This document shows positions 8,460 through 57,327 of a stretch of 64,000 nucleotides of DNA, in pieces. The DNA lies in assembly GCA_977862235.1 (NCBI GenBank), contig OZ374561.1, positions 2,232,001-2,296,000 on the forward strand. The letters are read 5' to 3'. The translations under genes and the position numbers were made by a program. Under the pieces are notes generated by a model that worked only from the letters and a program-made list of their open reading frames with translations, made no database searches and was not told the origin of the DNA. Each line of letters opens with the position of its first letter. Positions within the stretch are counted from its first letter, which is position 1. The stretch is from Dudresnaya verticillata. Its lineage: Eukaryota.

Positions 8460-8483
8460 GGAGAGGTCGATGGAGAGGTCGGC

Positions 8484-11112: not shown

Positions 11113-11204
11113 ACACAACGAAATACAGCTGTGAGTGCAGTCTCAAACGCGAAGGACTGCTGCAGATGGTCCACCCAACCTGATTCCTGTGCCATGCGCG
11201 CTCC

Positions 11205-19223: not shown

Positions 19224-19821
19224 AGTATTTTTAGCAGTTATAGTCGCGTCGGAAGGCCAAGTGCCTTATAGGCACTTCCACCCCATATTGGCGCGTTGTT
19301 GAATATCTCGAAAACGATTAAAGCTTTTATAAAACGGGCTTCTGATTCGTTCTCCGCGGGTCAAATACCTTTTAGGACGCTCCTTTTGGGGCGCTCTACA
19401 GTCCGCACTGTCCAGCATTTCCCCTTTTAGGGGGTGCTTTATACTTTCTGCCACCACTGTAGTACAGTGCCCGAATTTTAAATAAATACACCCACCGTCA
19501 CCGTGCTAAATACGGTTTCCCGTCCAGCAATGAGCGCAACAACACCGCCCTTAGAGCATCTCTACCGGTACGGTAAAACATATTTCTAACCCGCATTTTT
19601 ATCCTACTGAAGACCGGAAGGTTTTTTGTGATGAAATCGGACACGGCTGACACGTGGCCACCGGGGAAGGCGCAGCGACTTAGGCCGGCGCGCAACTCTC
19701 GCGCCGGCACCGTCGCCCCGCTATGCCTTTGTTCTCGCCGGTTCCTGTTTCCGACGAGAATTCTCCACGTCCCTTGGGGTGTGGCAGTAGGCCTTTCAAA
19801 GCAGTTGCCAGACAACTGTGG

Positions 19822-20491
19822 TGTAGTGAAAACCCACGAACTCCGAGACGGACAGCTGGCCTGACTTTCCTTAACGGACGAGAGCAACATTACCTCCACG
19901 GGGTGGTAGAGCAGTTCGCACCGAGACGGGAGAACAGCTAGCGGCTAACCGAGACGGATATTGGGAAGCAACAGACAAGGGGGTGGTACAAGTGCCGGGA
20001 CGGACTCCGTAACGGTGGTGGTGGTAGACCGCAACGGGCTCGGCGCGGGGAAAACCGTAAAGGATTGGGCTAAGGTTGCTTACCCGTTTACCTTAGGAGC
20101 CGCTGCGGTGCCGCCCTGATATACAAGTCAGGGTGGCACCGAGCGGCCCGGTCCGTGGGGGCCAGACCCTAGTGGCCTGGACCCATGGTGGAATCGGCCC
20201 TGCTGGTCCCAATCTCCGACACGGACATGCGCAGCATTCTCATTGGCTGGCGCACTACTCTACATACTGTACAGATGATCACTAAAAATAAAGAATAAAC
20301 ACTACAAATACTCCGATATGGTTGGTGCGCTTCACTGCTGTACAGCAATGCGTACCGGCGTACAGCAATGCGCACGACATCCGACACAGTTACACGTTGC
20401 CAGATCATCAGCGTGGCGTATTGCCACATCATCCGTTACGGTTGGCTTGCAGTCGGCGTGCCGCGTGCGCGCCACGGCTCACTTCACCACA
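19822..20491 (-). repeat. 3' LTR of element A (670 bp)
   Basis: Minus-strand ends TGTGGTGAA...TTCACTACA; polypurine tract immediately upstream. Confidence 0.85.
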
Positions 20492-20493
20492 GA

Positions 20494-20510
20494 CCCCCCT
20501 CCTTAAATGG
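20494..20510 (-). other. Polypurine tract of element A (CCATTTAAGGAGGGGGG)
   Basis: Purine run ending 2 nt before the TG of the 3' LTR. Confidence 0.85.
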
Positions 20511-20624
20511 CGCCACGTCCTCGGGCGTCCACCGTCACGGATTACCTTTGCTTCCACACCCACACACAATCGATACGGTATCGTGCTCAACTTTTCCTCC
20601 CCCTTCGTGCGCGCTTCTCCCACC

Positions 20625-23473
20625 ATGGCAGGGGAGGAGAGCAAGCGTTCCCCTTCCCCCTTTCAACCGACACGGCGTACCCGCGCGAGCTCGACGACGC
20701 GAGCGCCAGGTGCGCCTACCGTTACGGATGCTTCGACGCAAGCGCAGGCCTCGCCCTCGGCGGTTGTGGCACCACGCACGACGAGTGGTTGCGTGGATGT
20801 TTCCGCAGCGGAACCGTCGCAGGCACTATCGGCGGGCCGCGGCTGGTCTATCTACGATCCGAATCGGTTTGCTGCTGGCCCAGCCCCAAGGAGTACCCCG
20901 TCATGGAACGTAGCGACACACCGCCGCGGAGAAGATGTGACCAAGGATGACGACGAGGAGATCCGACGTGGAGGGGAGGAGCTCAACTTGGCGGACCTAC
21001 CCGCGATTCCGTTACGGACGCCATCGACCCCAATCTCAACCCCGATGCGGAACCTGGGTGCAAGCCCATATACGTCAGGCAGTACTCCGAAACGGTCGCG
21101 GGTGCGAGTGCGGAGCACGACGCCGACGACCGGCTCTTGGATGCCAATGGCGCGTACCCGTAGCGGTGAGGGCCCTGCTCCGAGCGGATCTTGGCCGGGA
21201 CACCATTTCGACCACCGTGCGGGGCGCCCGACGAGATCCGATGCGGAACGGGCTAAGGTGACACCACCGATGACAGTGTCAAACTTCATCGAGGGTTACC
21301 CAACCGTGTTGGAAGCGCAACGATACCAAGCCGTTTCGGAGCAGCCCTTCAAGGCAAACCAGCGAATTGGTTTCGTACCGAATCGGCGGGCGTTTGTGTG
21401 GCAAAGCCGATGGGTACACAGCTACTGCCAAGAGCGCACCTCTACCGTTTCGGATTTGTTGTGGTACCGTTGCCACGGAGAAGTGGGGTATACGGCGAAG
21501 GTGAGCCGCTTGTTGGTGACGGCGTTCCGTCTACGTGGGGCGCCGATCGGGGTGCAGTTTATCTGCTTTGACCCTCCGTATGACCAGTCGGTGTATTGGT
21601 TCCGCTATGCCGACGGGTGGAAAGACGACGCGGCGACGGAACACCGATTGCGGACGCGTAACCGAGACGGAATGCACGTGGGGGCACCCATCTTGCACAC
21701 GTGGAATACCAAAGAGTTCTTCCACCTTCCGTATCGGATGCGACGTGAGCTCTACCTCACAGCTCCGCCGTGGTGGGATAAATACGAGGTAACTCGTTGG
21801 TTATCCGTGCCTACGCCTTCTGTGGTGGCCTACTTCTCAGCAGACCTGCTCACGGAGCGGGAATGGAATCGCGAACATCCGAACGGAGAGCGTTCCCCTA
21901 TCCAGGATCAACTCGATGTGCTTTGGCGCATCTTCCGATCGGAGTGGGCAATGCTGGTGCTGTTTTCGTGGCTCCAAGTTGCCTACTACGGAGTGCGGTG
22001 CAATACCAAGTTATCCGACTGGCGCTGCTTCCCGCGTGATGATGCTGACCTACCCGGAGGGGACTGTGGCCGTATCTTTCAACTTCCCGTGACGGTGATT
22101 GCTCTAATTCGCCAAGTCGGTGTAGCCGATTTGGTGACGGGGTCGGCGTACCCACTCCATCGGGTTGAGCGTCTTTTATCCGTACACGGAGAGCAGGATT
22201 GGCAACGCACTCCGGGCTTCTTGGGGTATAGTTGGGATGAGGACCGTGTCCTATCGGTGCCCCCGCTTAGGCCCGGAGTGAGTGAGCCATATTTCCTTCA
22301 TCGAGAAGACCCGCGTCCGGAATGGTTGGCATTAGAGGTGCAGGCCCATCGGTGCTATGCTCCTCGCCAAGCACCAAGGGATGCGTACCGTGACTGTTTG
22401 GACGGAGCTGAAGATTGGGGGAGCTGTCAGGAGGCAGCGGGGCGTTCGCGTACAATCGACCCGCTCGATTCCGTTACGGTGAGGCAGCAAGAGGCTGACC
22501 CCTTCTTGGAAGACCAGGAGGAGGTCATGCCCGTGGCCTCAATGGAAGCGGGTAGCGAGAAGACACCCGCTCCAATCCTTCCGGTGGCCGCGACAACCAC
22601 GTCGCACGATGTGGATCGTGAGACTCCTATTCCCGTATCGGATAAGGCCCCAACGCCCATAGGCGTGGTTGCGCCGACTATGGCGGTGCCCAAGCTTGCG
22701 GCACCATCCAAGGAGGGAGTCTCAAAGGAGCAGATCGTTTCGGAAGTGGCGCCGGATACTGTACCGGCGGCACCGTCTCCTGCAACGCAAATGCCTGCCG
22801 CCGCGGAACCGCCCCTGCCAAGTGCTCCGCTGTCGGCGCCCACTCCCGCACCAGCGGTGAGTGAGGCACCGATCACCGTATCGGCAGTGGCTGCAAAGCG
22901 CCCAAGTGTTGGGGCAACTGGAGACAAGCCCTCTTTTCTCGCGTCAAGTCATGAACCGTTACGGAAAAGCGATATCGCCTCGCCAGAGAAGGACACGGAT
23001 CCACCGCTGCGGAAGGACGTACCTTCACCCGAGTCGGGACCATCCGTATTGGTGGTTTCCTCAACGGAGCATTCACTCGAAGCCGGGGTTAGGGATAAGC
23101 CGTCGATCTCCCCGAAGGTAGAGCTTCAAGAAGATGAGGATCCCCCGTTACGGTTCCGGCTCATCTAGCCGCTACGGAAAGTGGGTTACAGGTGCTGCGA
23201 GGCATTTGCCGTACGCAGCGCTTCCCATTGCCAGGATCCGTTCAGGAAGCGCTAACCTTAGCGGAGGGGTTGATGGAACAGGTAATTCATCTCCGCGCGG
23301 TGGTCCGTCGTCAACGTCGGCGCATGGATAGTGCGATTCGCGTCTTGGGAGATGATACGCAACGCGTATTCCAGTCGGATCCGAGTGGGGAACCCGGCTT
23401 ACGAACGGGACAGGGGAGTAACGAGGAAGCTACAGTTGCCCCTGCTCCGAAGCGGCGTCGACGTACCTCTTAG
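20625..23473 (+). CDS. Antisense accessory ORF of element A, function unknown: 847 aa to 23168, plus a frameshifted C-terminus (coiled coil, KRRRRTS) to 23473
   Basis: ATG in CACCATGG context ~130 bp inside the 3' LTR boundary. Long open frame with a Trp/Tyr-rich globular core flanked by low-complexity regions. Probable frameshift in the C5 run at 23142-23146. Confidence 0.75.
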
Positions 23474-23576
23474 AGTTACAGTGCGACGATCTCCTTAACG
23501 GTTTCCATTATTCCTCGATCTTCGCTTGCGATAAACATTGTGTATTCTGCTCACGCCCCAGCACTCCAATTGTCCG

Positions 23577-26500
23577 TTACGGTGAGTGACGTGTTGGATT
23601 AGCACGTCGCCTTGGCTTACCCTTAGTGGATGTCTTTTTCTTTTGCTTCCAATATCGGTAGATGAAATTCTGCGGTAACTCCTCCGCGGGCTCAAAAGTG
23701 TCTTGATCCGGAGGGTAACCATACCAGCGGACTTTGTATGTCATCCCAGTAGGTTCGTCGCGGTGACCGACAATCTTTTCGATCACATATTCCGTATCGG
23801 CTTGCAGTGGTTCCGTCGCGGAGGGAGTAGTACCTTCTGGAGGTGGCACTAATTCTCCGTAGACGGTTGATGGCGTGACAGGCGGCACTGTTAAGGGTGC
23901 CGGCTGAACCGCAACTCCGATCGGGACCTTCGTGATGCGATCAATACTTACGGGGATCAATACCCCTTCCTTTCGGATTGTAACAACATGTTCCGTTGCG
24001 GATTCCACTTCGTAAGGCCCAGTAGCTCTCGGAAGGAGTTTCTTCATTTCCTGAGCCACCTCGCCTACATCATCCGGCTTGCCTTCCAATCGGTCCCGTT
24101 CACGGCGTTCGGCAGGCCGCAAGTTATGGGGCGGCCTGTCGACGTAGACTTGATCTCCGTTACGGATTATGAGCCTAAAGCGCACCTTACGGTCAAACAG
24201 TGCCTTGGCTTTTTGCTGAGCCACTGTTTGCTTCGTGCGCGCTGTTTGGAGCGCATACCGTAAACGGCGCATGGTACTCCGCTTATGTAGCGCCGGGGTC
24301 ATACGTCCTTCCGTAACGGTTTCTTGATGCTCGACAGGAGCCCCTCGTACAACAATGTCCGATGGGTGGCGTGTCAGCACCAAATCAAATGGCGTTGTTT
24401 CCGTAACACGGTGTACCTGCATGTTGTACGCATACGTCAACGGTTGCAGGTACAGATCCCAATCGGAATGATGATCCTCAACGTAATGGCGCAAACGCTG
24501 AGCGATTGTCTTATTAAATCGCTCAGCTTGCCCATTCGTCTGCGGATGGTAGGCAGCGGTGAGCAGGTGCCTGACTCCGAGTAAGGAACACACCGCGTCG
24601 AAGAACTTAGCAGTAAACTGCGGTCCGTCTTCGGTTAGGACAAATTGGGGTGCGCCGTAGGCGTACACCCAAAAGTCCAGAAAGGCGTTAGCCACCACAA
24701 CGGCTGTTGTTGTCCGTAACGGAATACAGCGCGTCAGCTTAGAGAACCAATGGGTTATGACCAAAACGTAGACATAACCCCGTTTTGTCTTCGGAAGTGG
24801 CCCGAGAATGTCGATAGCGACAAACTCCAAAGGTCCGCTAGCGGGGAAAATTTTCATAAACCTTTGATTCCGAAAGCGGGTTCCCTTTGTCTTCACGCAG
24901 GAGCGACATGTCCAAACGGATTCAAAGACATCGTTGGCCATATGAGGCCAATAATAATCCTGTCGGAGTGTATAATACATCTTAATTCCGCCTGGGTGAC
25001 CCGACATCAGGGTGTAGTGGGATAAATACAATACCCGTCCACGGAGCTCGCTTGGCACCACCTTCTGTAGAGCGCCATCCAATTGGGACTTGCGTACCAA
25101 GAATCCGTTACGGTCATAGTCAAACTATGATCCAGGGGAGCATACCGTATCGGCTTTGAGACGACAGAAAGGGTCTCTGGCTTGCGCTTCGAGAAACTCC
25201 TCCCTGGTAATTGTCTCATCCTTAACGTCGGATTCTTGGATTACAGTAAACCGTGACGGTATTGCGTCGGGCTTATCAGGGGAGGCGGATGCGCTCCCAC
25301 TGGCGGGCTCCATGGCGCATATTACGTTATTTTCCGTAGCGGTTTCTCGCGATGTGGCCCAATCGGTTAAATAAACTCCATGCTCATATAATCCGTCGAC
25401 GGTATTTTCGGCGATAAAGCAGGGCATCTCTTCATCCAAAGGTCTATCGTCACCACCATCCGTTCGGAGTCGCGACATCCCATCGGCGAGTTGATGCTTA
25501 ATTCCAGGATGGTATTGCACCTCAAATTCAAATTCCGATAGGCGAAGCCTCCACCTGGCTAGGCGGCCAGATGAGTCTGCGAGGTTCAGGATCCACCGCA
25601 GGGCATCGTGATCCGTTCGGAGAATAAAATTATCACCGTAAAGGTAGGGTCGGAGTGTTAACATGCTCCAGACCACGGCTAAGCATTCCTTTTCGGTTGT
25701 CGTATAATTTTCTCCGCATCGGTGAGGCTTCGGCTCCAGTATCCAATGGAGGTGATTGCCATTCGGTTGTTCCTGCAGAAGGACACAGCCGACTTGGTGG
25801 TCACATGCGTCAGTGTCCAACGTATATTTATATCCGTGACGGGGTAGAGCCAATATAGGTGGAGAGATAAGGCGTCTCTTCAGTTCCTCGAAGGCTTCAT
25901 ATTCCGTATCGGATAATATTCCAAACTCAAAGGGTGAGCCCTTGCCGGTTTTCTTATTTAGCGGAGCTGAAATCCGAGCGAAGTTGGGTACAAAGCGACG
26001 ATACACGTTACACATTCCCAGGAAGGATCGCAATTCCGTTTGGTTTGTCGGCGGCTTCGCGACCTTAACGGATTGGATATTTCTATTATCCACTTCTAAT
26101 TTTCCGGGACGGATAACATGCCCCAGGTATTGTACAGACGCGTTGAAGAAGTCACACTTTGACAATTTCAACGTTACCCCAGCGGATCGTAAAAGCGTAA
26201 GGACTTCCTTCAGGTGGTGGAAATGTTCCGTAACGGTTTTTGAGTAGACAATTACATCGTCTAGGTAGACGAGGGCAAATTGTCATTTAACCGTAGAAAG
26301 GATTATATCCACTGCCCGTTGGAAGGTTGCCGGTGCATTTTTCAATCCGAATGGCATTCTCCAAAAACGGTATAAGCCAAAATGGCTAGTGAAGGTAGTT
26401 TTGTCCCTTTCCTCTTCCGGAATCTCGACTTGCCAATATCCACTATTGCAATCCAGGGTGGTAAATACAGTAGCTTCCCCAAGGGAATCTATGCACTCAT

Positions 26501-27641
26501 CCATCCTGGGCAAGGGATATGAGTCCCTAACCGTTACGGAATTGAGCCTTCTATAGTCAACACAGAACCGCATGGTGCCGTCCTTTTTTGGAACGAAAAC
26601 CACGGGGCTGGCCCACTCCGATGAGGCTGGTTCAATTACCTTAGCGGAAAGCATGCGATCGATCTCTGTCTTTTCGAGATCTCGCTGCTTATGTCCGGCA
26701 CGGTATGGGGCTTGATATACTGGCTTAGCTCCGGGATTTAACTCGATGCGGTGCTTGGCAGCTGTAATGTTGCCAAGATCGCCACTCCACATCGACTTAT
26801 ATTCCTCGAGTAGGGTTAAAATCCGTTTGCGGAGCGATGCTTCTTCTGTGCCGATCTGGACTTGATCCTTCCAATTGGTAGTATTTGTATTTTCCGTTAC
26901 GGGTTTGCTTAGTTCCTTGTCGTGACGGGAGATGCTGCTGGCCTTTTCGGAGGTAGGGTTAGAATTAAATGATTGAATAATTCCTCCCCCCTCCTTAAAT
27001 GGAGGTATACCGTCAACGGTAAAAATAGCAGAAGGGCAGCAGTAGCGAGGTCCACGACAGTAGATTTGGGCAACCGTACCGGCTTGTTAGAAAAATTAGA
27101 GACCCAGATCCGAAACGGTTTGTTAGGTACAACATCCATAATACCATTAGCCATTAACGTAAGGTGCTTAAAAGCCGGCTTAGGATGATTTTGTAGAAAG
27201 CATAACCCACCCGTGGGGTATTAACCGTTACGGTGGCTTGAGTCATAGGGGGAATAAGGGTAGATTTTGCTAAACGAATTTTCTGAGAAACCGTAGCGGT
27301 AGAAAGAGGTGAGGGCTGTAGGGTTGCAGTGGTTCCCGTCTTCGGAATTTTGGCTTGACCAACAAGGGATACCGGTGGGTAATGATGAAAAACAACTTTC
27401 CGTAACGGAGGGAGTATTGCCTTCACGTAGCGGTCGATGAAGGTAGTTCCCAAAATACAGGGAGCCGCCAAGTTCGCGACCACTAGAAAATGGACGCGAG
27501 CACGGAGCTCTCCGACACGGACGAAAAGTTGGATCTGACCAAGAGGGCGTATAGCACGATTAGACGCATCCCGTAATTGAGGACTGGCTGCTGGGCGTAT
27601 GAGTGGGAGCTATTGGCGCGGAAGGCGCCTGGCACTAATGA
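23577..27641 (-). pseudogene. pol of element A: protease C-part, dUTPase-like segment, RT, RNase H, integrase, chromodomain (stops/frameshifts)
   Basis: WASPVVFVPKKDGTMRFCVDYRRLN, MPFGLKNAPATFQR, VYLDD (~26255-26270), TDAC, LRTDH, HHCC zinc finger, AIDILGPLP, YHPQTNGQAERFN, chromodomain EYVIEKIVGHR..YKVRWYGY..DTFEP. Confidence 0.93.
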
Positions 27642-30600
27642 GCAAAATCGGAGCGTTCCGTCTTTCCTAGGTGCAAACACCACTGGCGAGGCCCAAGGCG
27701 ATTGAGAGGGCTCGATGACGCCGTGACGGAGCATGCGATCAACCTATTCCTGTGAAAACTGGCGCTGCCGCGGCCCCGCCCTGTAGGGCGGCGAGGCAAA
27801 CGGGCGCGCGCCGGGAAGGAGGTCAATATAATGCTCCGTCGTGGTGGTTTCACCTAGGGAACCATCCCACATGGCGGAGAACCGCTGAAGTAACCGTCTT
27901 ACCCGCTCGTGGTGAGCAGCGGGTAAGTGGCTAAGGTCCACGTCGTCGACAGTTAGAGTTATCTCCTGTGCGTCCCCCGGTGAGGGGGCGTCGTTGCGGG
28001 TTGACACGTGTGTCTCGTGCTTTCCACGTTAAGTAACTCGTCCGCTTCCGTCGTCGCGATGCCCAACACATCCCCCAGCTGCACGTGGCTGGGGATGACG
28101 GCAGTGGGGTGCGGCAGGGCGGTTGCGACGACTTGCCCCTTGGGGAGCAAGCGCTTCGTCGCGGAGAAGTTCGCGACGAGTATGCGGAACGGTTCGTTCG
28201 GCGTTACTTGGGCAATCCCATTTGTGGCGAGGACGCCGTGTCGCTGGTAATGGAGTCACAGGGCTGGATGCATATTGCACCCGCCCGTTCAGTGGTGACC
28301 CGCATCCACTTCTGCGACCGCTCAGGTATTACTAACTTTTCGGCGATCCGAATTTTTGGCGACAAGCGCCCCGTGATCGAGCTAGGCTCGAGATCACTTG
28401 CGGTTAACCGCTGTGCAGCTGGGAGGTGGGAGAGTGGACGACGAGTGATGGGCACTGCTGTGCCATCGTCCATCTCTACTTCCCTTGAGCGTGGGTGGAT
28501 CTCCTCCACGAACCGGTCGCAGAAGTCGCACCCAAGTATGACGGGTGCGGCGAGCTGGTCGCACACGATGAAGTCAAGCTTCACAACGCGCCGGCCCAAG
28601 CGGACCGCAAGACCCAAGGTTCCTAGGGTCTTGATCGCGTTGTTGTTCGTATCGGCGATCTTCGGGATATTACCCGTGCGCAGCGCCTCCAGTGCGGAGG
28701 GCGCCACTTCGGTTTTCCGAATGAAGTTGGGGCCTGCCCCAGTACCGAGAACACTCAACTTCCTCGTCATGGCCGCGGTGGTGCTGCCAATGTCGGCATA
28801 CACCTTATAGTTACGCTTGGCCAAGACGAAGACTCGGTCTCTCAATTATGGGGGCCGGTAGAGCGTCTGCGCTTTGGTTTTAACACCTTTGTTTGGGTGA
28901 ACCCCTGTTGACGGAGACGACCCCTTTTTTTGGCTCGGCATTCACAGTCGCCTCCCCTGTTGGGACATGGGGAGGTGACTCCCCTGCCTGGAAAGGCGGA
29001 ACCCGGCCTAGTTTTTCGGCTCGTGGTGAGCCAGCGGGGCACGGCGAAGCACACCCGGATGGCGCTCCGACTTCCGTGCTGCGGGTGGACCCGGTGATCG
29101 AGAACGCTCCCGGGCGTTGTGTTGCTGGGCCAGGTACCGGGTGTGCAGCTGCTCAGAGTAGCTGCGCGCCGGCACTTGGGCCTGCTCCTCGTCCGTGAGC
29201 GCCTCGAAGTTGATGATGATCTGACCGCGGTCACGGTATGTGAGGGTGCAATCCGTAGCGTAGTGTCCTCGACCGTACCTCGACCGTAACACGCGTGGCA
29301 GATCACCGTTGGCCCTCGCCCTGCTGGACGTTGAGCCATCGGGCGACTTGGGCGGCGGCCCTGCCAACCGGGACGAGATCGCTCGAATCCTGGAGAATGC
29401 TCCTGAAATGCGACGCGCGGCGCGGGGATGTGCCTTGGGGCCATGGCCAGCGCCGGGTCTTCTTCCGTACCGTAACCGGTATCGGTGGGGAGGTCCGTCG
29501 TCGGGAACGACGACGTGTCCGTTCCCAGTAGGTGTAAGTCACCATCATTGTTTCGGATGACCCCGTGTTCGCGCTCGCTGCGGTCCCGGAATTCAACCGA
29601 GGATTCGGCGAGCAGCGCTTGACCACGCCCTCGCGCCGTTGAAGGCGGAAGACGGGCTCTGGCCGTAGTCGGCGAAGCGGGGACTACCCCTGGTCTGCGG
29701 GATGCACCCGTTCTTGCGCGATGAGCGTCGCCCTCGTCCTGTGCAAAGTGGACGAGGTGCTCAAAGGTGAGTTCACCTCGCCGGGTCTCTTCGCGATGGC
29801 GCGCAACAAGGGAGCGGATGGTAGGGTCCAGCCCGTCGATGAACAGAGTCATCTTCTCCCAGGCCGGGTAGACGTTGCCGCAGCGATGGCACCCTTTAGA
29901 AAGGCGCATCGCAAACGCGGACTCCGTCTCACCCGGCCGTTGCGTGGTTGCACGAAGAGCGAGGGTGGCCTCACGTATGGTGCAAGGCATCGCATACGTG
30001 CACAGTAAGTAATGCACGTCCTCCGGCCACGAGTTGATTCCACCATCTGCTCGCGATGACGCGCCGCGTACACTCCGGAACTGCTGCGAAGCAGTTCCAC
30101 GGAGGACGTTCGGGAGGGCGATGAACTCCTGGGCCTCATTCATCTCCACGGTGTCGGCCTCGTCGACAAACCTCGAGAGAAAGTCAAGAATGGGCACGGG
30201 GTCATCCCCAGCAAACGCGCAGTCGCGTAAGGTCAACTCTAGCCGCTTGATTTGGTCTTTGACCTTACCAGTTTGGCGACTCGAGCGCCTTTGGGAAGTG
30301 TCGGCCAGCCGATATGTCCTGTAGGACAGTAGCCGGTCGAACAGGGGGTTCGTGGGCGTGAGCTCCTTCAGCCCCCTGTACTTCCTTCCGCCTTTGCGCT
30401 ATTGCGGCGGGCCGAGGGGCGACCCTCGGAACCGCTGTCGGATGAATCCGAGTTATGGGAGTGATCTTCAGAAGAGGACGAGGGGACGAGTTACCGTCAT
30501 CGTGACGACTACCGCGCCTGTTCCCATCGTTTGCGCGGCCACGATCACCGCGTCCACTTCGGGTCCGGTGCTCGCCTGCGCGCCGTTCTTCCGCACGCCG

Positions 30601-31674
30601 CGCCTCCGCGTCGATGATGCGGAGGTCCGTTCCGACTGGAACAACCCAGTCATACTCGCGTGCGTCGCGTTCGGCTTGGATGTACCCATTGCGATCCGGG
30701 TTCTCGACGTCCCCCGGACCGCGACCACACGAGAGTGGGCTGCCGGTCTCTCCTTCGCGTATCGGGCGATCCCGTGAAATGGGGTCAGCCCCTGCAACTC
30801 GCTCTTCCAGGAGACGGTTAACGTCTGCCCGGAGGGTGCGTAGTTCGCGGTTGACTTCATCGCGTCGGGCGTGATCGCCATGGGGACAATTCCCGGAGGC
30901 ACCGGCGTCGACGCGCGTGTTAAGCGCAGCGACTTGGCCTTCGATGTCCTGTATACGGGCGTTAACGCCATTAAACTGTTCACGGCAGGTCGCCGTGAAC
31001 TGCGCCACTGCCGCGTCTACTCACTGAGCCAGGTTGTCCACCAGGACGGCGTCCTGCGAGATGCAAATCTCGCGGACCGCCGCCCTGGGGACAGTGAGTC
31101 CTGAGGCGATGTGGACGCTGGCAGGCTCGGGATTACCCGCTGCTCCGGCCGTTGGGCCTTCCGGATACGGCGGCGGAGGCGCAGGTTCCGGCGAACGAAT
31201 CGGGCTAACCCGTGGACTGCGAGGCGCAGGAGATCCGTTAATGGATACGGTATTGGCCGGACCGTCGCAAGACGGTGCGTGGCCTTGCGGATCATACGCT
31301 GTTTGATATACAGTCGGCGCCCTTTCCACAGGGGCGCTGACTGTAGACTCCGGGGTCGATGCCGACGGCGCCAAAGGTGCCGTGGCGGTCGAAGTCGGAT
31401 CGGGATAACCCGTGTAATTAGACACAGGCGTCTGTGAAGGCGTCTGTGAAGGCGCCTGCAAGACGGGATACCCCGGGGTTGAATAAGCAGGGGCCTGCGA
31501 AGGCGCCTGCGGAGCGGGATAACCCGTAGAGATCGGTTCGGGCGCCTGAAAAGGCCCCTGGGAGACGGGAGGTCCCACGTTCGCGGTCGAACTGGCGGGA
31601 GTTCCCGTGAAGGGAATGGTTGTGGCCGGCATTGCCGGCGGAGGGTCGGACGCCATTGGCAGTCCGGCGGTCAA
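27642..31674 (-). pseudogene. gag-pro-RT(N) of element B
   Basis: Pro-rich N-terminus, capsid-like LSYRTYRL..FAGDDPVPILDFL..TQRPGETESAFAMRL..FIDGL, zinc knuckle CHACYGRGHYATDC broken by an 11-bp duplication near 29270, protease VLGTGAGPNFI..APVILGCDF, RT WASPVVFAPRKDG. Confidence 0.88.
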
Positions 31675-31993
31675 AGCGCTCGCCGTCGGTTACGCGGGAT
31701 CACCCGTTCACTGGCTGTCGGCACCAACGCGCGAGCGGCTTAAAAGCTGTCCAATCTACGGGCTTGGTCCCGGATTTGGCTGCGAGTGACCTTGAAAGCG
31801 GAGGGGGCGGCGGGGCTCCGAAGTGAGCGAGCTCGCCTTGCGGCTCGAGGTAGCTGGTCTCACCATAACGCGCGTGCGTTTTGGGAGAGCCCTTGGAAGC
31901 AAGACGAAGCGGCCGACCAATCGGAAAGGTCGGCGGGGCAGGAAGAAAAGCGGGAGAACCCGACCGGACGGAGAACGCTCCAATCGGGTGGGA

Positions 31994-32011
31994 TTCTAGG
32001 TCGGGAGACCA
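31994..32011 (-). other. Primer-binding site TGGTCTCCCGACCTAGAA (probably tRNA-Tyr)
   Basis: Starts with TGG 6 nt after the LTR end; identical 18-mer at 45610 and 48795. Confidence 0.85.
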
Positions 32012-32017
32012 TAAATG

Positions 32018-32803
32018 TGTAGTGCAACCCTCCGAATGAGAGTCGCAACCAACACAACCCACTAGTCCGACGTGGGAGGGTAGCCGCGGTGACGTGTGTG
32101 AGCGCGTCGGTACGTGGTAGGGTAGAGCAAGGGGAAGGCCCCACCCAGTGTACGGACTGTAAACACACACCAAAGCCGTGTGAGCACGTAGTGAGCCAGA
32201 AGGTGGGGGCACCGGCACAACAAGCGTGTGAAAACGAAGGTAGAAAAGGTTTCAGCACCATAGGCGTACGTAGCCCAGCTCCACGATGGCTTCACTCGCC
32301 AAGCGCACGGAGGTAGGGGTACCCTAAGTGTGGAGCCGAAGCTTGGGTTTACTCGAGGAGGTCGGTCCTAGCCCCTTAACTCCCACCGCGGGCGGCGGCG
32401 CCTAGGCGGTGGCGACTAGGGCTACTGTACACTAGCAAATAAACTAACACTAGAGTACAATAAACTAACACTACAGTAGCACAGTGTACCTACTGTACAC
32501 CGACACCAGCACGCTGTAAGACGTGTAATGACGCATGCGTGTGCGCGTGTGCACGTGTCACGCGTGTTGCGCGTGTCTTGCGCGCGCTTGCGTGGCGGTG
32601 GCTGTAAGGCGGCGAGTGCGGCCCTGTAACGGCGACGGCGGGGGAAAGCCCCAAGGGTGGGCGCGGGCCCACTGTAGTGGTCAACCATGGTCCAATGGGA
32701 ATGCCCAGCTTGGCGGCGCGCGTCGCGGACGCGCGCGAGCCATCACGCGTAGAAATGGGGTTATCAACCCCCAGCTCGGAGAGGGCTTGGGCGTTGCACC
32801 ACA
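32018..32803 (-). repeat. 5' LTR of element B (786 bp)
   Basis: Minus-strand ends TGTGGTGCAAC...GTTGCACTACA (10/11 inverted repeat), followed by the PBS. Confidence 0.85.
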
Positions 32804-44761: not shown

Positions 44762-44765
44762 GACT

Positions 44766-45608
44766 TGTGGTATAGACGCTATCCGCGAGACGACTCCGTG
44801 GTCTACGTGAAAATAATCGAGAAATACGAATTTCGAAGTGACTCCGTGAATGCGCACGCCACGATGGCAAACGTATTACAATGCGCATATTGTGCGCGCG
44901 CCACGATGGCATTCGCATTACAGCATGCACGTGATACGAAATCGCTGACACCTCCGGACGAATCCCGAGCTGACTTCGTGATCGCGCGCGCCACGATGGC
45001 ATTCGCATTACAGTGCGCCCCCGATACGAAATCGCTGACACCTTCGTGACTTTCCCGTTGTCTCCCGCGCGTAACGACACCGGGGCCCACGAGACACGCG
45101 CACCTCCGTATGCATCGCTGGCGCACTTCGTAACCGCCACCATACGTCAGGCGACCGTTCGTTGGCACCGAGGCCGTTACGAATCATTCGAGTACGAACC
45201 GTCTCCCGCGTTGACGTGTATTCGTGCTCACGTAGTATTACTTAGCCAGTCGTCTGGCACAACCTCCGAGAGTTTCCGGTAAGCGACTAGCGCCCGGACC
45301 TCGGAGTCTTCGGTAAACGCCTGTTTCTTCGAGTTCGGTGTCTTCGTCTTCGTGACCGCGGATACGGTCGAGCCTCGCTTTCGATAGCCCCGCGCACCCG
45401 GAGTCATCCCCGGTGATCTATCGCTCGAGTTCTCCCTTCCGCACACGAATAGGTTGACACCGTGGTCCTTCGTATTGGTCGCTCCGCTCTACCATGCTAC
45501 CACCCCTTTTCGTTTCTCCGCTAGGCTACGAGGCCATTCGTCAGGCTCCGAGACCATTCCTTTCAGTGCGAGACTTCCCCGCGTCAACGTGGACTTCGTT
45601 ATACCACA
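44766..45608 (+). repeat. 5' LTR of Gypsy element D (843 bp) with ~60-bp internal direct repeats
   Basis: TGTGGTATA...TATACCACA, followed by the PBS. The repeat GCGCGCGCCACGATGGCATTCGCATTACAG...GATACGAAATCGCTGACACCT occurs at ~44894 and ~44984. Confidence 0.85.
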
Positions 45609-45609
45609 C

Positions 45610-45627
45610 TGGTCTCCCGACCTAGAA
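45610..45627 (+). other. PBS TGGTCTCCCGACCTAGAA of element D
   Basis: 1 nt after the LTR-terminal CA. Confidence 0.88.
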
Positions 45628-45679
45628 GGTGGTCCCGAAGTTTCGCAATTATTTGTAATTCGTTTCTATCCGAGACACA

Positions 45680-48019
45680 ATGTCTCACGCTCCGAGTCGT
45701 CCCGATTCGCCGGTACCGAAACCCGACGACGTACCGATTCCGGAGCTCCCGTTGTTCGACTCGAACGCGAGTGACCGAGAACCGTTTTCTCACACTCGCG
45801 CTTCACGAATAACGGTACCCGATCTTCGCACAGACTCGCGTTCGCAGGCTCACGGGAGCCAGTTCGACCTTTCGTATTGTGGCATAGCTGTAAGACCAGC
45901 TGTGCCACGCACGCGAAGCTGTAAGACCAGCTGCGCCACGTGTGCACTGCTGTGCGCACGCTGTCAGCCGGTGGCGCCGAAGCCCCGCTGAACTGTAAGG
46001 AAGTGCGCAGTGGCACGCGAAGCTGTAAGACCAGCTGCGCCACGTGTGCACTACTGTGCGCACGTTGCCAGCCTGTGGCGCTGAAGCCCCGCTGAACTGT
46101 AAGGGAGTGCGCAGTGGCGCCCACGTGTGCACGCGTTCGCGTGTGACACTGAAACTCCCATGTAATTTCTACATTTATTGTTTTGTAGTGTACAGCACCG
46201 TCTAGTGTAAGCGGCGGTCGAACGCCCTGCTGTCCTGCGCGCTGTGCGCACGCACTCCGGCGCAGAGCCGTTGAGTGCGTGACACGCGCGCGCGCACTCC
46301 GGCGTCGAGCCGTTGAGTACGTGTGGACCGTTCCACCTACGCGCGCCCCCGGGTTACCGTTACCCGTACGCGTCGACGCGTGTTGGGGCGCGCCGGCGCA
46401 TCTCCCGGGTTGGTGCCGCCGCAGGCCCTGTAGTATATCTAGTAGTCGCCCCTCTCGGCTTCAGTAAACCAGGCAAGCCAGCCTACGCCTGGCTTTCCCT
46501 TTCTGCTTTGGGTTTCTTTCCCAGTCCTTCGCCCTACGGCTTCCCTCTTTCCCTAGCCGCCTAGGCTTTCCTTTTCCTTTCCCTACCGTCGGCTTCGTGC
46601 CGCCCCACTACTGGGACGCAGGGATCCGGCCGCTGCCGCCCGCGTACGGTACGCCCCGTGCGCGCTCAGGCTTCGACGCCGTTGATCCGCGACCGTCGAC
46701 GGCGCACGCGGCCGACACCACCGCTCTACCACCACAGCTACTACCCTTCGACGGGTCTGGGTGCGACTGATCGACCAGCGCAGCTAGACGTCAGTTCGAC
46801 CTGACGTCTATGCCACACGAATACGTACACTGCGTTGGAAATCGTTCCCTCGGATACCGTCGATCGACTCTTCTCGATGAAGGAAGTCTCCGGTGCAGAA
46901 CTACGTTTACTCTACGAAGAGTTCATCGACGCGCTTTCCACTGCGTACCGTATCACGCAGCTCTCAACTCGTAATACGCATAATCGAGTTCACGCAGAGT
47001 TCGACAATCTCCGCGCTGGCAAGGTCCGTAGGATCGAAGACTCACTCGAGAGTCTCCGGGATCTCGTCTCGGGAGTCAGCAACCGGTTTCTCGTGCTCGA
47101 GCGCAACGTATCCGCCCTAGTGGGCAAGGAGAGTCACTCGCCTCCCGTTCGCAGCTCGCACGCATTCTCGGAGGAACAGTTGAACGCTATTCGTGATATC
47201 GTGTCCGCCGCGTTACCGAAGGAAAAGACTCGAAGTCGCGAAGATCGTCCCGAAGCCCGTCCTGATCCCCGCAATTCGCCGCTAGTTCAACCCGTGCAAG
47301 GCCCGGGTGTCCAATCTACGTTACCGAAAAAGACGTTTCCGAATCAGTCTTCGCACCCTTTATCGCATCAGGCAAACGATGCCTCCGACAACCCCCGTAT
47401 CAACCCCGCAGTATTCCGAGCTTCCCTTCAACCACCGATGTCCCCCGGAGGACCCGTAATCGAAAATCCGTTATCGCTCGCGGGACCCGTGTCATCGTTC
47501 TGGCACTGGGGAACGCTCGAGCCGGGCGTCGAACCGATACCGACGCTCATCCCCGAATTCGCACGGGCCGTAAGCTATCGATCATATCGACTCACAAATT
47601 TGTCACCTCGGGATAATCAACACGAAGTCTTCCGAGGTAACAAGTCGAAAACCGTTTCCCGCATGCGTTCGATGATGCCGAGACTCGAGAAGTTTACGGG
47701 ACGCGACCCGATTAAGGTTCTCGCATTTCTTCGTGATATTCGACAAGCGCTGAACGGAGTCGGGCTCACCGAAGGAGCAGCAATTCGAACGATTTCGTGG
47801 TTCCTCGACGAGACCGCGCTCAAGGTTTATCAACACTATGCCTTCGGAGGCGTTCGTACTGGCAACCCGGTTTGCTGGTCCGCTATCGTGAACGTATTGC
47901 TACAACGATTTCTCACGGAAGACGTAATCGCTGACGCACACGATCGCGTGATTACCGCGAAGCAGAAGTCCGAAGAAACCGAGATGGAATTCGCGACTCG
48001 TCTAGAAGGCTAGGCAGAT
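45680..48019 (+). pseudogene. gag of element D, interrupted by a solo LTR (45878-46817) and truncated by element C
   Basis: Removing the solo LTR and one TSD copy joins FDLSY|TYTALEIVPSD in frame. Clearly homologous to gag of C (GPVSSFWHWG, FARAVSYRSYRL, FTGRDPIKVL, TAKQ..EFATRL). Confidence 0.88.
45878..46817 (+). mobile_element. Solo LTR (940 bp) related to the element C LTR, with an ~100-bp internal tandem duplication
   Basis: Perfect IR TGTGGCATAG...CTATGCCACA; TSD CGTAT/CGAAT (4 of 5). Shares blocks such as GGGATCCGGCCGCTGCC and TACGCCCCGTGCGCGCTC with 48020-48793. Confidence 0.88.
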
Positions 48020-48793
48020 TGTAGTATAGCTGTCAGCACACTATCAGCAGCGGCTGTAAGGTATGCTGGCAGCGCCGCACTGTAATGGTGCACACGATGA
48101 CGCCCGCTGGCGAGTCGTGGTTGGGCAGCGTGCCCTTAGTTTTTTCGTTGAATTAGTAGCGGTCGACCGCATTGCTGCCGGCAGCGGCCACGCGCCGTGC
48201 CGCACACGGCGCGCCCCTGTGACGCTCTCCGGCATCGAGCCGTTGAGAGGGCCGCTGCCCGTTACGCCCCGCGCGCGCCCACGGGTAACCGTTACCCGGA
48301 CGTGTCGACACGTGTATGGGCGCGCGCTCGCACACCTCCCGCGTTGGTGTTGTGGGGTGCACCTACTGTAGAAGTAGTCGTAGTGCACATAGTGTAGGGT
48401 ATTTAAGACCGTCGGCCATCGACGGCTCAGTAAACCGGGCAAGTAACAGCTCGCGCTGAGGCTTGCCCCCAGCCTTTTCGGGTTCGATCCCTTTGCCTTA
48501 CGCCAGCGGGCGGTTTCCCTTTTCCCCCTTGCCTCGCTAGGCTTTCCCCTTTCCTTTTCCTTTCCGTCGGCTTCGTGCCGCCCTTCGACAGGGACGCTGG
48601 GATCCGGCCGCTGCCTACCCGCGTACAGTACGCCCCGTGCGCGCTCCGGCATCGACGCCGTCGATCCGCACCTGCGGGGCGCACGCGCCCGACACCGCTC
48701 TACCAACCCCAACAGCTACCCATCGACGGGTCTGTGTGGCGGCTTCGGACCGGCAAGTATCAGACGTCGGATCGATCCGACGTCTATACTACA
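48020..48793 (+). repeat. 5' LTR of Gypsy element C (774 bp)
   Basis: Perfect IR TGTAGTATAG...CTATACTACA, followed by the PBS; interrupts gag of D. Confidence 0.92.
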
Positions 48794-48794
48794 C

Positions 48795-48812
48795 TGGTCT
48801 CCCGACCTAGAA
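48795..48812 (+). other. PBS TGGTCTCCCGACCTAGAA of element C
   Basis: 1 nt after the LTR-terminal CA. Confidence 0.88.
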
Positions 48813-48860
48813 GTCGTCGAGACCCAAGTACTTCTCGCATCGACGCGATCGAAGTAAAGG

Positions 48861-51292
48861 ATGTCGAGTCCTTCTGACCCGGCCGCTGCCGCATCGGCCG
48901 CTGCCGGAAAAGTTGAGGACGCGACGCGTCGCACCTCAATACTGAGTACCATCGGCGTCTCAGGTACTCCTCTACACGATGTGAGGCTCGAGCGGAGGGC
49001 CGCGCTGCAAAAGGCCCTCGCCGGGAGTCTGGTCTCGGTGGCCGACCTCCAGCTGCTGTATGAGGAGACCATGGACTCGCTAGCCGAGGTGTACGACCAC
49101 CTTACAGCTTCAATAGCTGCGGCGAAGGCCGACGGCCAGCAAGACCTGGACACGCTTCGACGCGGTCCTTTGGCGTCCATCGAGGACGGAATAACCCGGT
49201 CACAGGGGCTCCTCGATGAGCTACGCCGCCGCGTTGAGTTGATAGAGTGCGCGCCGACGCGGCAACGCCAGCGGGCTACGGGCCCGTCGTCGGCGCAGCG
49301 CTCTCCGCCGCGACCGCAGTCACCAGCGGGTGCAGTTCAAGAATTGGCCACTGCCATACTTGCCGAGCAACGAGCTCGATATCGCTTTCCTTCACTACCG
49401 CCATCTCCACCGAGGAGTGCGGCGGGGTCGCACCATCCGAGTGGGGACCCCAATCCGTTCTACGCGGTCGACCCCAGGTTGCTCCAACAAGCCCTCGACG
49501 GGCAAAACACAAATGGGGGACCGACCCCCCAACAGCACGAGGGCCCCGTCTCTGCCTATTGGCATTGGGGCCCACTCATGGCAGGCATCGAGCCTTTAAC
49601 CACGTTGGTGCCAGAGTTCGCTAAGGCGATCGACTACCGCTCGTACCGTCTCGATGACGTAGATCAGCGGGACAATCAACAGCAGGTATGCAGCGGCAAT
49701 ACTGCGAAGATTGTCAGCCGCATGAAGGCCCTGATGCCCCGGCTCGACCGGTTCGACGGCAAGGAGCCTATCCGCCTGCTAGGTGTGCTTCAACAGCTAC
49801 GCCAAGCATTCAATGGCGTTGGACTATCCGAAGGCGCAGCGGCGCGTGTGGTGTCCTGGTTCCTCGATGGAACCGCGTCAAAGGTGTACGCGAGTCACCT
49901 GTCCTCTGGGGTGCGCACAACGCAGCGCGGCACCCCACCCTGCTGGGCCTCGGTGGTCAATACCCTCGTCGAGAGGTTCGTCACGGACGACGTCATCGCA
50001 GACCCCCATGACCGGCTGACCACCGCCAAGCAGAGGGACGCCGAGTCCGAGCTTGAGTTCGCTACTCGCCTCAAAGGGTATGCGGACGCCTGCGCCGGTG
50101 TGTACTCCGATGAGAACTTGACGCATCCGTTCCTTCGGGGCCTGCTGCCCACGACAAGACCCGCAGTGGCGGAGAAGGTCAGGCAGCTGCCTATGGTCGA
50201 ACAGACCAATTTTAGTACCGTTCGTCGGATTGCCCATAGCGAGGGCACAACCTACCGCGCCCGTTCGGCAAAGGCAGCGCAGCCTACGAACACCTCAGGG
50301 CGCGACAGGTCAGGTGGCAGCTCGGCAAGCGGCCGTACACTGCTCATCGAGGGCCCACCAAGCTATCCCAGCGGGGACGTTACTATCGACAACACAATGC
50401 TGGCACAATGCTGGTGGACCCTGACGCCGACGGGTTCGAACCCGTGATGGTCGCACCCGAGCTATCGACAGCCGGGCCGAGGCCGTTGAGATCCTCGACA
50501 TTACAGGACGCATCGACGCGGTCCTACCCAAGCGCATACCACCGCTCACTCCAACGCAGGAGGCGATGGCACGCGCAGTCATCCCTGATTGACAGGGATG
50601 GTACATCTGCTAGTTCTGCCGTGAGGTCGGTCACATCATGTATTCGTGCCCGTACCTCACGAAGGAACAGCAGGCATACTGCGCGTATGCGACCTGCAAC
50701 CATCGAATGGAAACGCAGCCGCATTCGCGCAATATGCTCCAACAGCTCATCGAAGGGCGCGCGCCAGCGGGCGCAAGGACAAGGAACCCCGCACGGCGCT
50801 ACGACGCGCCGCGGGGTGGGAACCGACGCTTCGACGCGAGAGGTCCCCCGCAGCGCATGGGCGCACCAAGGTACCGCGGAGAGCCACAGGGGTACCGCGG
50901 GGATCGTCGAGACCCACGCCGCGAGTACCGCCAAGGCGACGCACCACGGTTCCTGCTGCGCGATAAGCGGGTCGGCTTTGATGAGCCCGCCGGCCGTCAA
51001 CCTCAGGCATCGACCTCCGAGGGCTGACCCGCGCCGCGAACTGCTTCGAGCAGTTATGACGGTGCAGGAGCACACAGGCCTCACCACCGACGAGTGGCTT
51101 CCGCAAGCGCTCGATGCGCGACACAAGGGAGAAACAGCCAGCGGGCAGGGAAGCGATTCCCCTCTCCTTTTTGACACGCCTCCGCGATTGACGCGAGGCG
51201 CCTCAGGGGTTACGAAACACCCAATCGGAATCGAGTACGAAAGTTCGGATTCCGAGGATAATTCTGACCGGGTCGATCCGGAAAAAGAATAA
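48861..51292 (+). pseudogene. gag of element C (frameshifted), with zinc knuckle
   Basis: 528-aa ORF with capsid-like motifs. C*FCREVGHIMYSC knuckle near 50608-50650 and an RG-rich tail in other frames. Confidence 0.85.
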
Positions 51293-51306
51293 AGGCGGCG
51301 CCGCTC

Positions 51307-55995: not shown

Positions 55996-57327
55996 CGCCT
56001 ACGCCCACTCGAGTTGCGCGGCACCCGAAGCTCTTTACACGAATGGCCCCGGCGCCCACTACGCTCTTGCATCACGTGCTGACTGCGCCAGCGCTCGATT
56101 GCCCCGGAGCATACGTTTGCATGGTACCGCTACGCGCCTCTCGTGAACCCCACTTCGTGATACTCGTCTCCGTCTTCCGCAACGCGCCTTCGTCGCGCAC
56201 GACCACAGCCCCGACACACACGGTTGCCTCGGAGCAGATGGCCACCACCACGCACATGGCGCTACCGCGGCTGCGCACTTCGCCCCGTGATCGCCGTCTT
56301 CGCTTCGCTAGACCCGCACCGGATTGCGTTCGCCGCCCCACTTCCCGGCCGCGCGCCGCACGACACCGAGGTCCTCGGAGACGACACGCCACCGCATCAA
56401 CGATACGCGATCACGAAGCCAATGCCTCCACGAAGTTGCGCTCCACGCCGTCGGGCGGTGTCGACCACCACCGCCCCAACTCAGCGCCCCTCGTGAAATC
56501 CGCAAAGGCGCACCGCGCGCACCCGGTTGCACCGCGGCTCTCGCATGACAGGAGCTGAAACCGCGACGGACGGACACGGTGACCTATAAGTAACTTGTCA
56601 TACGCGCCTGACGTCATACTTCGAGGCCGATGCCACCCGCAACGCGCACTTCGACTTCGCAACCCGCGCCTCACTTGCGACACGGAGCTTACCTGTTACG
56701 ACGCGCCTTCGCAATGAGCACGGAGTCCTCGTTGTCGCCAAGCGCAATCCTCTCGCATGGCCTCGGCTTCCCATTATGAATACGTTCCGCCCGCACCGAT
56801 GCGCCCCGAAGCAGCTCGTTCACGACAGCCCCGGATCTCACGCAACTTGCCCTGCGCGATCATCACAACACCCGCACAGATCTCCGAGGAGCGCGTATCC
56901 GCAACCCACCCCCCCAAGCACGTTGGCGCGGACGCCTTCGTCTTGAGGAGGGGGCCGTGCACGCATATCGCACGAAGTCTCGATGACTCAACTCCGCGAA
57001 GGAAACACGCGTAATATTATTATTAATCAACGTCACACGCATCACGAAAAACGAAGCCGTGCCACGAACAAGTCCAGATTCGCACACTTGAGCACGAAGC
57101 TCGTTTACGAGAAGCTACGAAGCTGAAGCTACGATGCTAACAACTACGTGACTATCACCACGAGGCAAAAGAAGAGTCGAGAAAGAAAAACGTTTACTCG
57201 AGACGATACCACGAGACCGAGACCCCGCCACCGTGAGCTCCGAGAACAAGGAGCTCGATACCGAAAACGAGAAACCACGCAGCTACGAAGCTAAAAGAGA
57301 ACGTCTCGGTTCTAACACTACGTACAA

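What the first reader, a model, noticed from the sequence alone, without database searches (positions are those of the whole stretch)
20007..27408. About 28 copies of CCGTANCGG (17 exact CCGTWACGG) confined to element A
By-eye positions. CCGTAACGG: 20007, 24311, 24714, 26228, 27400. CCGTTACGG: 20433, 20719, 21009, 22471, 22956, 23145, 23574, 24157, 25105, 26531, 26894, 27225. CCGTATCGG: 21729, 22633, 22876, 23792, 25145, 25904. CCGTAGCGG/CCGCTACGG: 21158, 23169, 25334, 27291. CCGTACCGG: 27074. Under uniform base composition about 0.24 copies are expected in 7.8 kb. The motif is read in different frames of the integrase (TVTE, PLR, IRNG), occurs in the LTR and in ORFs on both strands, and essentially stops at the A/B junction (~27641). 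One extra copy lies just outside the LTR (19565). This points to selection at the nucleic-acid level. The CCG-N3-CGG inverted half-site layout suggests a dimeric DNA-binding protein (inference).
Basis: seen in the sequence. Interest (0 to 1): 0.85.

Follow-up and report, generated by a model that had tools for sequence, protein, structure and literature searches.

The report
Retrotransposon families barcoded with DNA mini-palindromes
A jumping gene of a type found in red seaweeds is studded along its whole length, even inside its protein-coding genes, with one short palindromic DNA word, related jumping genes carry different words, and these words likely serve as family-specific landing sites for a protein of unknown fold that the element itself encodes.

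Summary
All 28 listed copies are at the stated positions; 17 exact CCGTWACGG lie in the 8.0-kb element, none in the other 56 kb. They are the core of a wider dyad, CCG-N3-CGG (61 copies, 5.5 expected), in the LTR and in every reading frame, far above synonymous-codon shuffles, dispersed and not tandem. The element is a truncated chromodomain Ty3/Gypsy retrotransposon whose closest named relatives are red-algal. It carries an intact 847-aa antisense gene of a conserved, unnamed family with a confident model and no clear fold match. Neighbouring and related elements each carry a different word (GGG-N4-CCC, CGY-N5-RCG, CGNAG, GGC-N4-GCC, CTC-N6-GAG), mostly perfect 4-bp inverted repeats with 3-5-base gaps; in two multi-copy families these are about half as variable at silent sites. 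Distant Ty3 elements and host genes lack them. Strand symmetry and no G-T tolerance point to DNA rather than RNA. Best reading (inferred, 0.45): family-specific self-recognition by the antisense protein, working like plant VANC/TnpA anti-silencing. Binding and function are untested.

The parts
19628..27641 (-). Element A: 5'-truncated chromodomain Ty3/Gypsy LTR retrotransposon (no gag or 5' LTR in the window), carrying 61 CCG-N3-CGG dyads, mean gap 128 bp
   Evidence: the junction near 27641 is read from the sequence, where element B's reverse-transcriptase start breaks off
19628..20490 (-). 3' LTR, TG...CA with short inverted ends; 9 dyads (10.4 per kb), 2 exact
   Evidence: ends set by eye from TG/CA ends and the purine tract, no second LTR to compare
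20493..20506 (-). Polypurine tract just before the 3' LTR
20625..23168 (+). Intact antisense accessory gene, 847 aa from the ATG; folded domain about 21261-22310 between low-complexity arms; 24 dyads in all three frames (10/11/3)
   Evidence: 109 relatives; pLDDT 90.8, pTM 0.91
23577..25124 (-). Integrase with chromodomain; 7 dyads
25125..27086 (-). Reverse transcriptase and RNase H, interrupted by in-frame stops; 12 dyads
27154..27609 (-). Protease-like region in a shifted frame; 4 dyads in the ORF, 1 more at 27110
   Evidence: no Pfam hit, the name rests on position and resemblance
20007..27408 (.). The 28 core copies CCGTANCGG (17 exact CCGTWACGG), a subset of the 61 dyads at 19843-27520
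27642..32700 (-). Element B (gag, protease, start of RT): different word, GGG-N4-CCC 21 vs 3.1, arms covary; internal control for family specificity
44800..59400 (+). Element C: non-palindromic word CGNAG 353 vs 183, equal on both strands; broken antisense ORF 57328-59001 with only a weak match to A's antisense family
59900..64000 (+). Element D (gag, protease, RT): CGC-N5-GCG 18 vs 3.3 and CGT-N5-ACG 13 vs 3.0, inner positions covary

Best explanation
This retrotransposon carries 61 dispersed copies of the palindrome CCG-N3-CGG through its LTR and its coding genes, and these likely act as a family-specific DNA barcode that the element's own antisense-encoded protein would bind along the whole element, probably to keep its own family active against host silencing. 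Shown: the excess, its confinement to this element, its independence of reading frame, its strand symmetry, different words in other families, silent-site conservation in two related families, and a conserved antisense gene in the same clade.
For: Excess over codon shuffles in pol (23 vs 3.1, max 10 of 1000) and in the antisense ORF (24 vs 3.9, max 12). Copies have unrelated flanks (identity 0.31 vs 0.30 random) and no tandem array, so they arose one by one. Symmetric matrix: spacer position 1 A12 C13 G1 T35 vs complement of position 3 A15 C8 G3 T35; flank -1 A20 C5 G7 T29 vs complement of +1 A19 C6 G5 T31. Folding z-scores are alike on both strands (pol -0.84 sense, -0.90 antisense). C's non-palindromic word is equal on both strands (176 and 177). 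Four elements in one window have four different words, each near background for A's word, which argues against one host factor or one genome-wide mutation bias. Relatives form one clade (25 rows, 100/99) whose words differ even between close sisters; 10 of 11 clade gag-pol sets other than A exceed all 150 codon shuffles for 4-bp inverted repeats, 0 of 6 distant Ty3 loci do. Four-fold sites inside arms differ at 0.119 vs 0.215 elsewhere (24 copies) and 0.085 vs 0.160 (19 copies), control arms 0.237 and 0.160; the drop holds in all base classes. The antisense gene family recurs antisense and downstream of pol in L082 and L088 (E 4e-21, 6e-17) and, more distantly, in the metagenome families (HH probability 84%, E 8e-6). 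Precedent: VANC binds 8-9-base family-specific motifs (PMC5735166, passages); TnpA needs dense motif clusters (10.64898/2026.08.24.746577, passages).
Against: No binding, expression or chromatin data. The antisense domain has no Pfam family and nothing in it points to DNA binding by homology. In B, D and relatives the variable arm positions are complementary within each site (B 18 of 21 vs 7.7; L086 15 of 17 vs 5.4; L083 18 of 25 vs 6.7), which is what base pairing predicts and not what a simple dimer site predicts. Gene and word co-occur at clade level only, so they are not independent observations; the gene was detected in 2 of the 8 contigs L081-L088, L084 shows no dyad, and L029's best dyad is within the null range. 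No other copy of family A was found, so silent-site conservation was tested on relatives only, whose copies are not independent. VANC motifs lie in non-coding tandem repeats and are absent from tested exon probes, unlike here. Element A is itself broken (stops, frameshift).
Confidence: 0.45

Rival explanations
1. The words are tiny stem-loops on the genomic RNA or on the single-stranded cDNA, read by Gag, the reverse-transcription complex or a Rev/CERV-like export factor as dispersed packaging or export signals.
For: Covarying 4-bp arms with 3-5-base gaps in B, D and relatives; A also has CCG-N4-CGG (pol 11 vs 1.7); elements fold more stably than shuffles. Dispersed packaging signals are known in RNA viruses (PMC6281560, listing only); CERV is an LTR-element accessory protein needed for RNA export (PMC10309623, abstract).
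Against: No G-T tolerance: perfect 5-bp arms 573 vs 196 in control gaps, but one internal G-T 209 vs 198 and A-C 294 vs 249 (six loci pooled). No strand preference in A's matrix or in most folding scores (L034 alone leans to sense, -0.89 vs -0.39). A's flanks do not pair (18 vs 21.9); its 3-bp hairpin is only about -1.2 to -1.4 kcal/mol. CGNAG flanks do not pair. A hairpin on either DNA strand is not excluded by these tests.
Confidence: 0.2
2. A host dimeric DNA-binding factor (for example a CGG-triplet or MYB-type reader) binds the word, and the element has collected its sites.
For: Each exact copy contains TAACGG, a MYB-type site (recalled); everted CGG triplets resemble Zn2Cys6 sites (recalled). 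AACGG outside dyads is 1.49 of expected in A against 0.5 in host genes.
Against: Host genes are at background for the dyad (7 vs 5.8 in 17 kb); AACGG outside dyads is as high in B (1.29) and D (1.94); each family has another word and geometry, which would need many host factors; sites fill coding regions rather than the promoter.
Confidence: 0.13
3. The palindromes are a by-product: fold-back template switching by the reverse transcriptase perfects short quasi-palindromes, or a modification and mutation bias leaves them behind.
For: Perfect repeats are enriched while one-mismatch repeats hardly are; correction would also lower variability. Template switching can create and maintain hairpins (PMC8794818, listing only).
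Against: It does not explain a fixed word in A (61 of 186 arm-3/gap-3 repeats are CCG, the next arm has 6) or non-palindromic CGNAG in C. Arms stop sharply at 4-5 bp with family-specific gaps. Compensatory double changes are not raised (0.003 of cells vs 0.003-0.009 in controls), although copying a mutation across would raise them. Several words hold no CG.
Confidence: 0.12
4. The words are preferred integration targets that draw new copies into old copies of the same family, as a safe harbour.
For: LTR elements often insert into palindromes (PMC6911290, listing only); the window is a nest of elements; one core copy lies 60 bp outside the LTR.
Against: The outside copy is within chance; no same-family nested insertion is seen in A; an element gains little from targets inside its own essential genes.
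Confidence: 0.04

Closest known systems
VANC/VANDAL anti-silencing (Arabidopsis Mutator-like DNA transposons; PMC5735166)
   Same: Short (8-9 base) family-specific motifs in many copies per element, differing between related families, beside an element-encoded accessory gene.
   Different: DNA transposon; motifs are non-palindromic, in non-coding tandem repeats; binding and demethylation shown. Here an LTR retrotransposon, palindromic words dispersed through coding DNA, an unrelated protein, no function shown.
Spm/CACTA TnpA motif clusters (10.64898/2026.08.24.746577)
   Same: Family-specific motifs whose density gives specificity (4 or more per kb counted as high; element A has 7.6 per kb).
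Retand/Tat Ty3 elements with antisense TRP28 ORFs (PMC11963269)
   Same: Conserved antisense ORF between pol and the 3' LTR, function unknown, DNA binding predicted.
   Different: Flowering-plant non-chromovirus lineage, Pfam TRP28 domain and local tandem arrays; here a chromodomain integrase, no Pfam match, no tandem array, element-wide words.
Dispersed packaging signals of RNA viruses; Cer1 CERV export protein
   Same: Many short degenerate signals over a whole genome; an accessory protein serving its own element.
   Different: Those act on one RNA strand; here the signal is strand-symmetric and shows no G-T tolerance.
Red-algal chromodomain Ty3/Gypsy elements (Chondrus crispus, Agarophyton chilense, Gracilariopsis chorda proteins)
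   Same: Integrase up to 57% identical over 97% of its length; antisense family present as hypothetical proteins in G. chorda.
   Different: No description of the words or of the antisense family was found in the searches run.

Membership tests
Ty3/Gypsy LTR retrotransposon with chromodomain | pol order RT-RNaseH-integrase with C-terminal chromodomain | tested here: met
   Pfam RVT_1, RT_RNaseH, Integrase_H2C2, rve, Chromo in this order on the minus strand
Ty3/Gypsy LTR retrotransposon with chromodomain | LTRs with TG...CA ends, purine tract, gag, target-site duplication | tested here: inconclusive
   One LTR and the purine tract seen; gag and 5' LTR are missing, so no duplication can be checked
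VANC/TnpA-type sequence-specific anti-silencing | Dense family-specific short motif that differs between related families | tested here: met
VANC/TnpA-type sequence-specific anti-silencing | Motifs in non-coding tandem repeats or subterminal clusters | tested here: not met
   47 of 61 dyads lie in ORFs, flanks unrelated, no tandem array
VANC/TnpA-type sequence-specific anti-silencing | Reader homologous to VANC (MAIN-like) or to a transposase-derived TnpA | tested here: inconclusive
   No Pfam family for the domain among 110 members; fold libraries gave no clear match, which does not exclude a family
VANC/TnpA-type sequence-specific anti-silencing | Protein binds the motif and removes silencing marks in trans | not testable with these tools
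   needs binding and chromatin assays
Retand/Tat antisense TRP28 ORF | Pfam PF04195 domain in the antisense ORF | tested here: not met
   no Pfam hit at E 0.01 for the query, PF04195 not among member hits
RNA packaging-signal stem-loops | Single-strand preference and G-U tolerant stems | tested here: not met
RNA packaging-signal stem-loops | Binding by capsid or nucleocapsid protein | not testable with these tools
   no assay available; family A gag is not in the window

The most novel reading that the evidence does not exclude
A whole clade of red-algal LTR retrotransposons writes a family-specific barcode of 9-14-bp DNA mini-palindromes into its own coding sequence, and a fast-evolving antisense protein of a new fold reads both their sequence and their two-fold symmetry, coating each family's copies to free them from host silencing: a retrotransposon self-recognition system that arose apart from VANC and TnpA.
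Probability: 0.35. Interest if true: 0.9.

Novelty: new variant of a known kind. Interest (0 to 1): 0.78.

Why it matters
Sequence-specific self-recognition by element-encoded proteins is established for plant DNA transposons; antisense accessory genes of LTR retrotransposons are common but their function is open. Here a candidate cis word and a candidate trans protein come as family-specific pairs, so the question is directly testable by cross-binding. It also shows a second code laid over protein-coding DNA about every 50-130 bases, and a protein family that may give small, retargetable DNA readers.

Tried and rejected
No genome held; no sequencing run was listed; earlier findings returned nothing. 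Word-based search with the full antisense ORF found nothing, the HMMER search of its core found 109; the search for longer forms covered only 1758-5000 residues and found none. Viral contigs: no relative. PDB sequence search: best E 0.084. Fold searches of the good model: no Foldseek match at E 0.001 in viral or PDB libraries; VIA best Z 5.0 over 79 residues, rmsd 3.9, then bromodomain-like four-helix bundles at Z 4.8 or less, all weak and only for residues 70-234; this does not show a new fold. ESM Atlas: primase-like leads at 0.85 with low shared counts, not followed. Homodimer prediction: no answer. Second model (metagenome family) pLDDT 42, not used. Rfam none, tandem repeats none. Helical phasing of dyads none; a weak 160-180-bp period (uncorrected p 0.01-0.03 on dependent pairs) is not relied on. 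Peptide trace of the exact word: raised in the closest integrases (22 vs 7.8 in 10 proteins) but mostly at shared conserved residues; absent in antisense relatives (46 vs 42.5 in 43 proteins): inconclusive. CCGTWACGG is not enriched in any of 80 metagenome loci (0-2 copies each) or in the 24 genome-collection loci examined (0). GNA mini-hairpin reading of CGNAG rejected, flanks do not pair.
Full report
Observation. The Markov expectation in the element is 0.16. The word is the core of a wider dyad: CCG-N3-CGG occurs 61 times in 19628-27641 against 5.5 expected; spacers 4 and 2 give 15 and 10, the others 2-7. The preferred form is WCCGTWACGGW. Density is 10.4 per kb in the LTR, 9.3 over the antisense gene, 4.5-9.0 over pol, and 1 copy in the 559 bases after the junction. 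The dyad is read in all three frames of pol (3/13/7) and of the antisense gene (10/11/3) and exceeds all 1000 synonymous-codon shuffles in both (23 vs 3.1; 24 vs 3.9). Copies share no flanks and form no tandem array.

What the element is. Pfam gives RT, RNase H, integrase and a chromodomain on the minus strand; the named integrase relatives are from Chondrus crispus (best 57% over 97%) and Agarophyton chilense, so the host is inferred to be a red alga. One LTR (19628-20490) follows a purine tract. pol has in-frame stops and a frameshift; gag and the 5' LTR are missing. Between pol and the LTR lies an intact antisense ORF (20625-23168, 847 aa). Its core has 109 relatives at 25-43% identity; of 10 looked up, one cluster is named, as Gracilariopsis chorda hypothetical proteins. 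It has no Pfam family, folds confidently (pLDDT 90.8, pTM 0.91) and has no clear structural match.

Other elements carry other words. In the same window B has GGG-N4-CCC (21 vs 3.1), D has CGC-N5-GCG (18 vs 3.3) and CGT-N5-ACG (13 vs 3.0), and C has CGNAG (353 vs 183); each is at background for A's dyad (2, 1 and 9 vs 4.4, 2.5 and 10.7). These exceed codon shuffles too. Eighty metagenome loci (34-45% integrase identity, six clusters) hold 0-2 exact copies of A's word each, but representatives show GGC-N4-GCC (23 vs 3.8), ACC-N4-GGT (15 vs 3.1), CCG-N1-CGG (19 vs 3.6) and GTC-N3-GAC (18 vs 4.2); 7 of 8 representatives beat the best of 40 simulated sequences, L045 only barely, and L029 did not. 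Contigs filed under bacterial genome bins gave a third set: CTC-N6-GAG 25 vs 2.8 (L082) and 25 vs 2.7 (L083), CAC-N7-GTG 17 vs 2.7 (L086), CCC-N5-GGG 15 vs 1.6 (L081); L085 shows CGNAG (99 vs 60) and L084 nothing clear (I examined 24 of the 52 loci, leaving out short and bacterial ones). A tree of integrase cores places all of these in one clade (25 rows, 100/99) apart from five distant Ty3 rows, with different words in close sisters (long outgroup branches, midpoint root).

The shape of the words. In B, D and the relatives the excess is of perfect inverted repeats with 4-5-bp arms and 3-5-base gaps (arm 4, gap 4: L049 147 vs 32, L034 138 vs 31, B 84 vs 23, L082 134 vs 38; arm 4, gap 3: L067 129 vs 32, D 44 vs 18), while host genes and flanking DNA stay near background. 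Ten of 11 clade gag-pol sets other than A exceed all 150 codon shuffles (L045 does not); 0 of 6 distant Ty3 loci do. Two or three arm positions are fixed per family and the others vary but are complementary within a site. Arms end sharply. G-T pairs are not tolerated. In A the arms are fixed, and neither flanks (18 vs 21.9) nor the inner pair (29 vs 24.8, p 0.12) covary; its matrix is symmetric between strands, as are folding scores. C's word is not a palindrome and is equal on both strands.

Are they maintained? In two multi-copy metagenome families, four-fold degenerate sites inside arms differ half as often as others (0.119 vs 0.215 over 24 references; 0.085 vs 0.160 over 19; control arms 0.237 and 0.160; p below 0.02 for each of the 8 references printed), in CpG, C/G and A/T classes alike. 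The copies are related, so pooled counts are not independent. Compensatory double changes are not raised, which argues against copying by template switching. This test could not be run on family A.

The antisense gene travels with the clade. It lies antisense and downstream of pol in L082 and L088 (E 4e-21, 6e-17) and, more distantly, in the metagenome families (probability 84%, 207 columns; iterated profile). C's broken antisense ORF matches only weakly (probability 6%, E 0.006). It was not detected in six of L081-L088, several of which end soon after pol, nor in 16 distant loci.

Mechanism. Sites that are family-specific, spread over the whole element, indifferent to frame and equal on both strands are best explained by a family-encoded reader acting on DNA; the fast-diverging antisense protein is the obvious candidate (inference). 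Counter-silencing is the likeliest purpose by analogy: VANC binds family-specific 8-9-base motifs and removes methylation (PMC5735166, passages), TnpA needs dense clusters (10.64898/2026.08.24.746577, abstract and passages), and red algae are reported to mark repeats with methylation, small RNA and H3K27me3 (PMC8566409, passages). I give this 0.45. The covarying arms in relatives are unexplained by a plain dimer site and keep a hairpin-based reading alive, either on DNA (within the main reading) or as packaging or export signals (0.2). A host factor (0.13), a mutational by-product (0.12) and integration decoys (0.04) follow. MYB and Zn2Cys6 site resemblances are recalled, not from a call.

Novelty. 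Antisense ORFs of unknown function between pol and the 3' LTR are known in plant Retand elements (PMC11963269, passages); accessory proteins are surveyed in PMC13547354 (passages); CERV serves RNA export (PMC10309623, abstract). Ten searches of the open library listed no report of element-wide, family-specific palindromes in LTR retrotransposons or of this protein family. The red-algal genome papers and their supplements were not read and may bear on this. Verdict: real, works like VANC/TnpA self-recognition if the inference holds, not a member of those families; new variant of a known kind; interest 0.78.

Noticed in passing
window 1-17200, also 20260-20365 and 32420-32500: TACAGTA/TACTGTA is enriched in host DNA (11 vs 1.5) and recurs near AATAAA-like runs in the long-terminal regions of A and B; possibly a host promoter or 3'-end element.
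   Followed up: no
window 26985-27003: A second copy of the purine-tract sequence that precedes the 3' LTR sits inside pol, upstream of the RT core; possibly a central purine tract.
   Followed up: no
window 17285-19461: Tc1/mariner-type DNA transposon with long inverted ends (95% over 183 nt) and a broken DDE_3 gene, 166 bp from element A's LTR.
   Followed up: no
window 44346-44763 and 59470-59884: Two LTR-like copies about 88% alike, 15.1 kb apart; both are rich in D's word, and two gag-like regions lie between them (46805-48013, 48858-50447), so the nest is complex.
   Followed up: partly
window 52400-55900 and 55900-59000: Element C is CpG-rich (observed/expected 1.66 in pol), unusual for a repeat if CG methylation acted here.
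   Followed up: partly
L085: CGNAG is enriched (99 vs 60) as in element C, and the two group together with weak support (83/57).
   Followed up: partly
L081-L088, L090-L111: Eukaryote-type Ty3 retrotransposon contigs are filed inside bacterial genome bins of the collection: likely mis-binned host DNA.
   Followed up: partly
P0007 and P0130: An integrase relative and an antisense-family protein both list a longest contig of 8376 bases; they may be from one element.
   Followed up: no
window 33000-44000: Long ORFs without Pfam hits and a Harbinger-type DDE_Tnp_4 gene at 42988-44427; gap-0 and gap-2 palindromes are raised here (arm 5: 32 vs 10.8, 23 vs 10.5).
   Followed up: no
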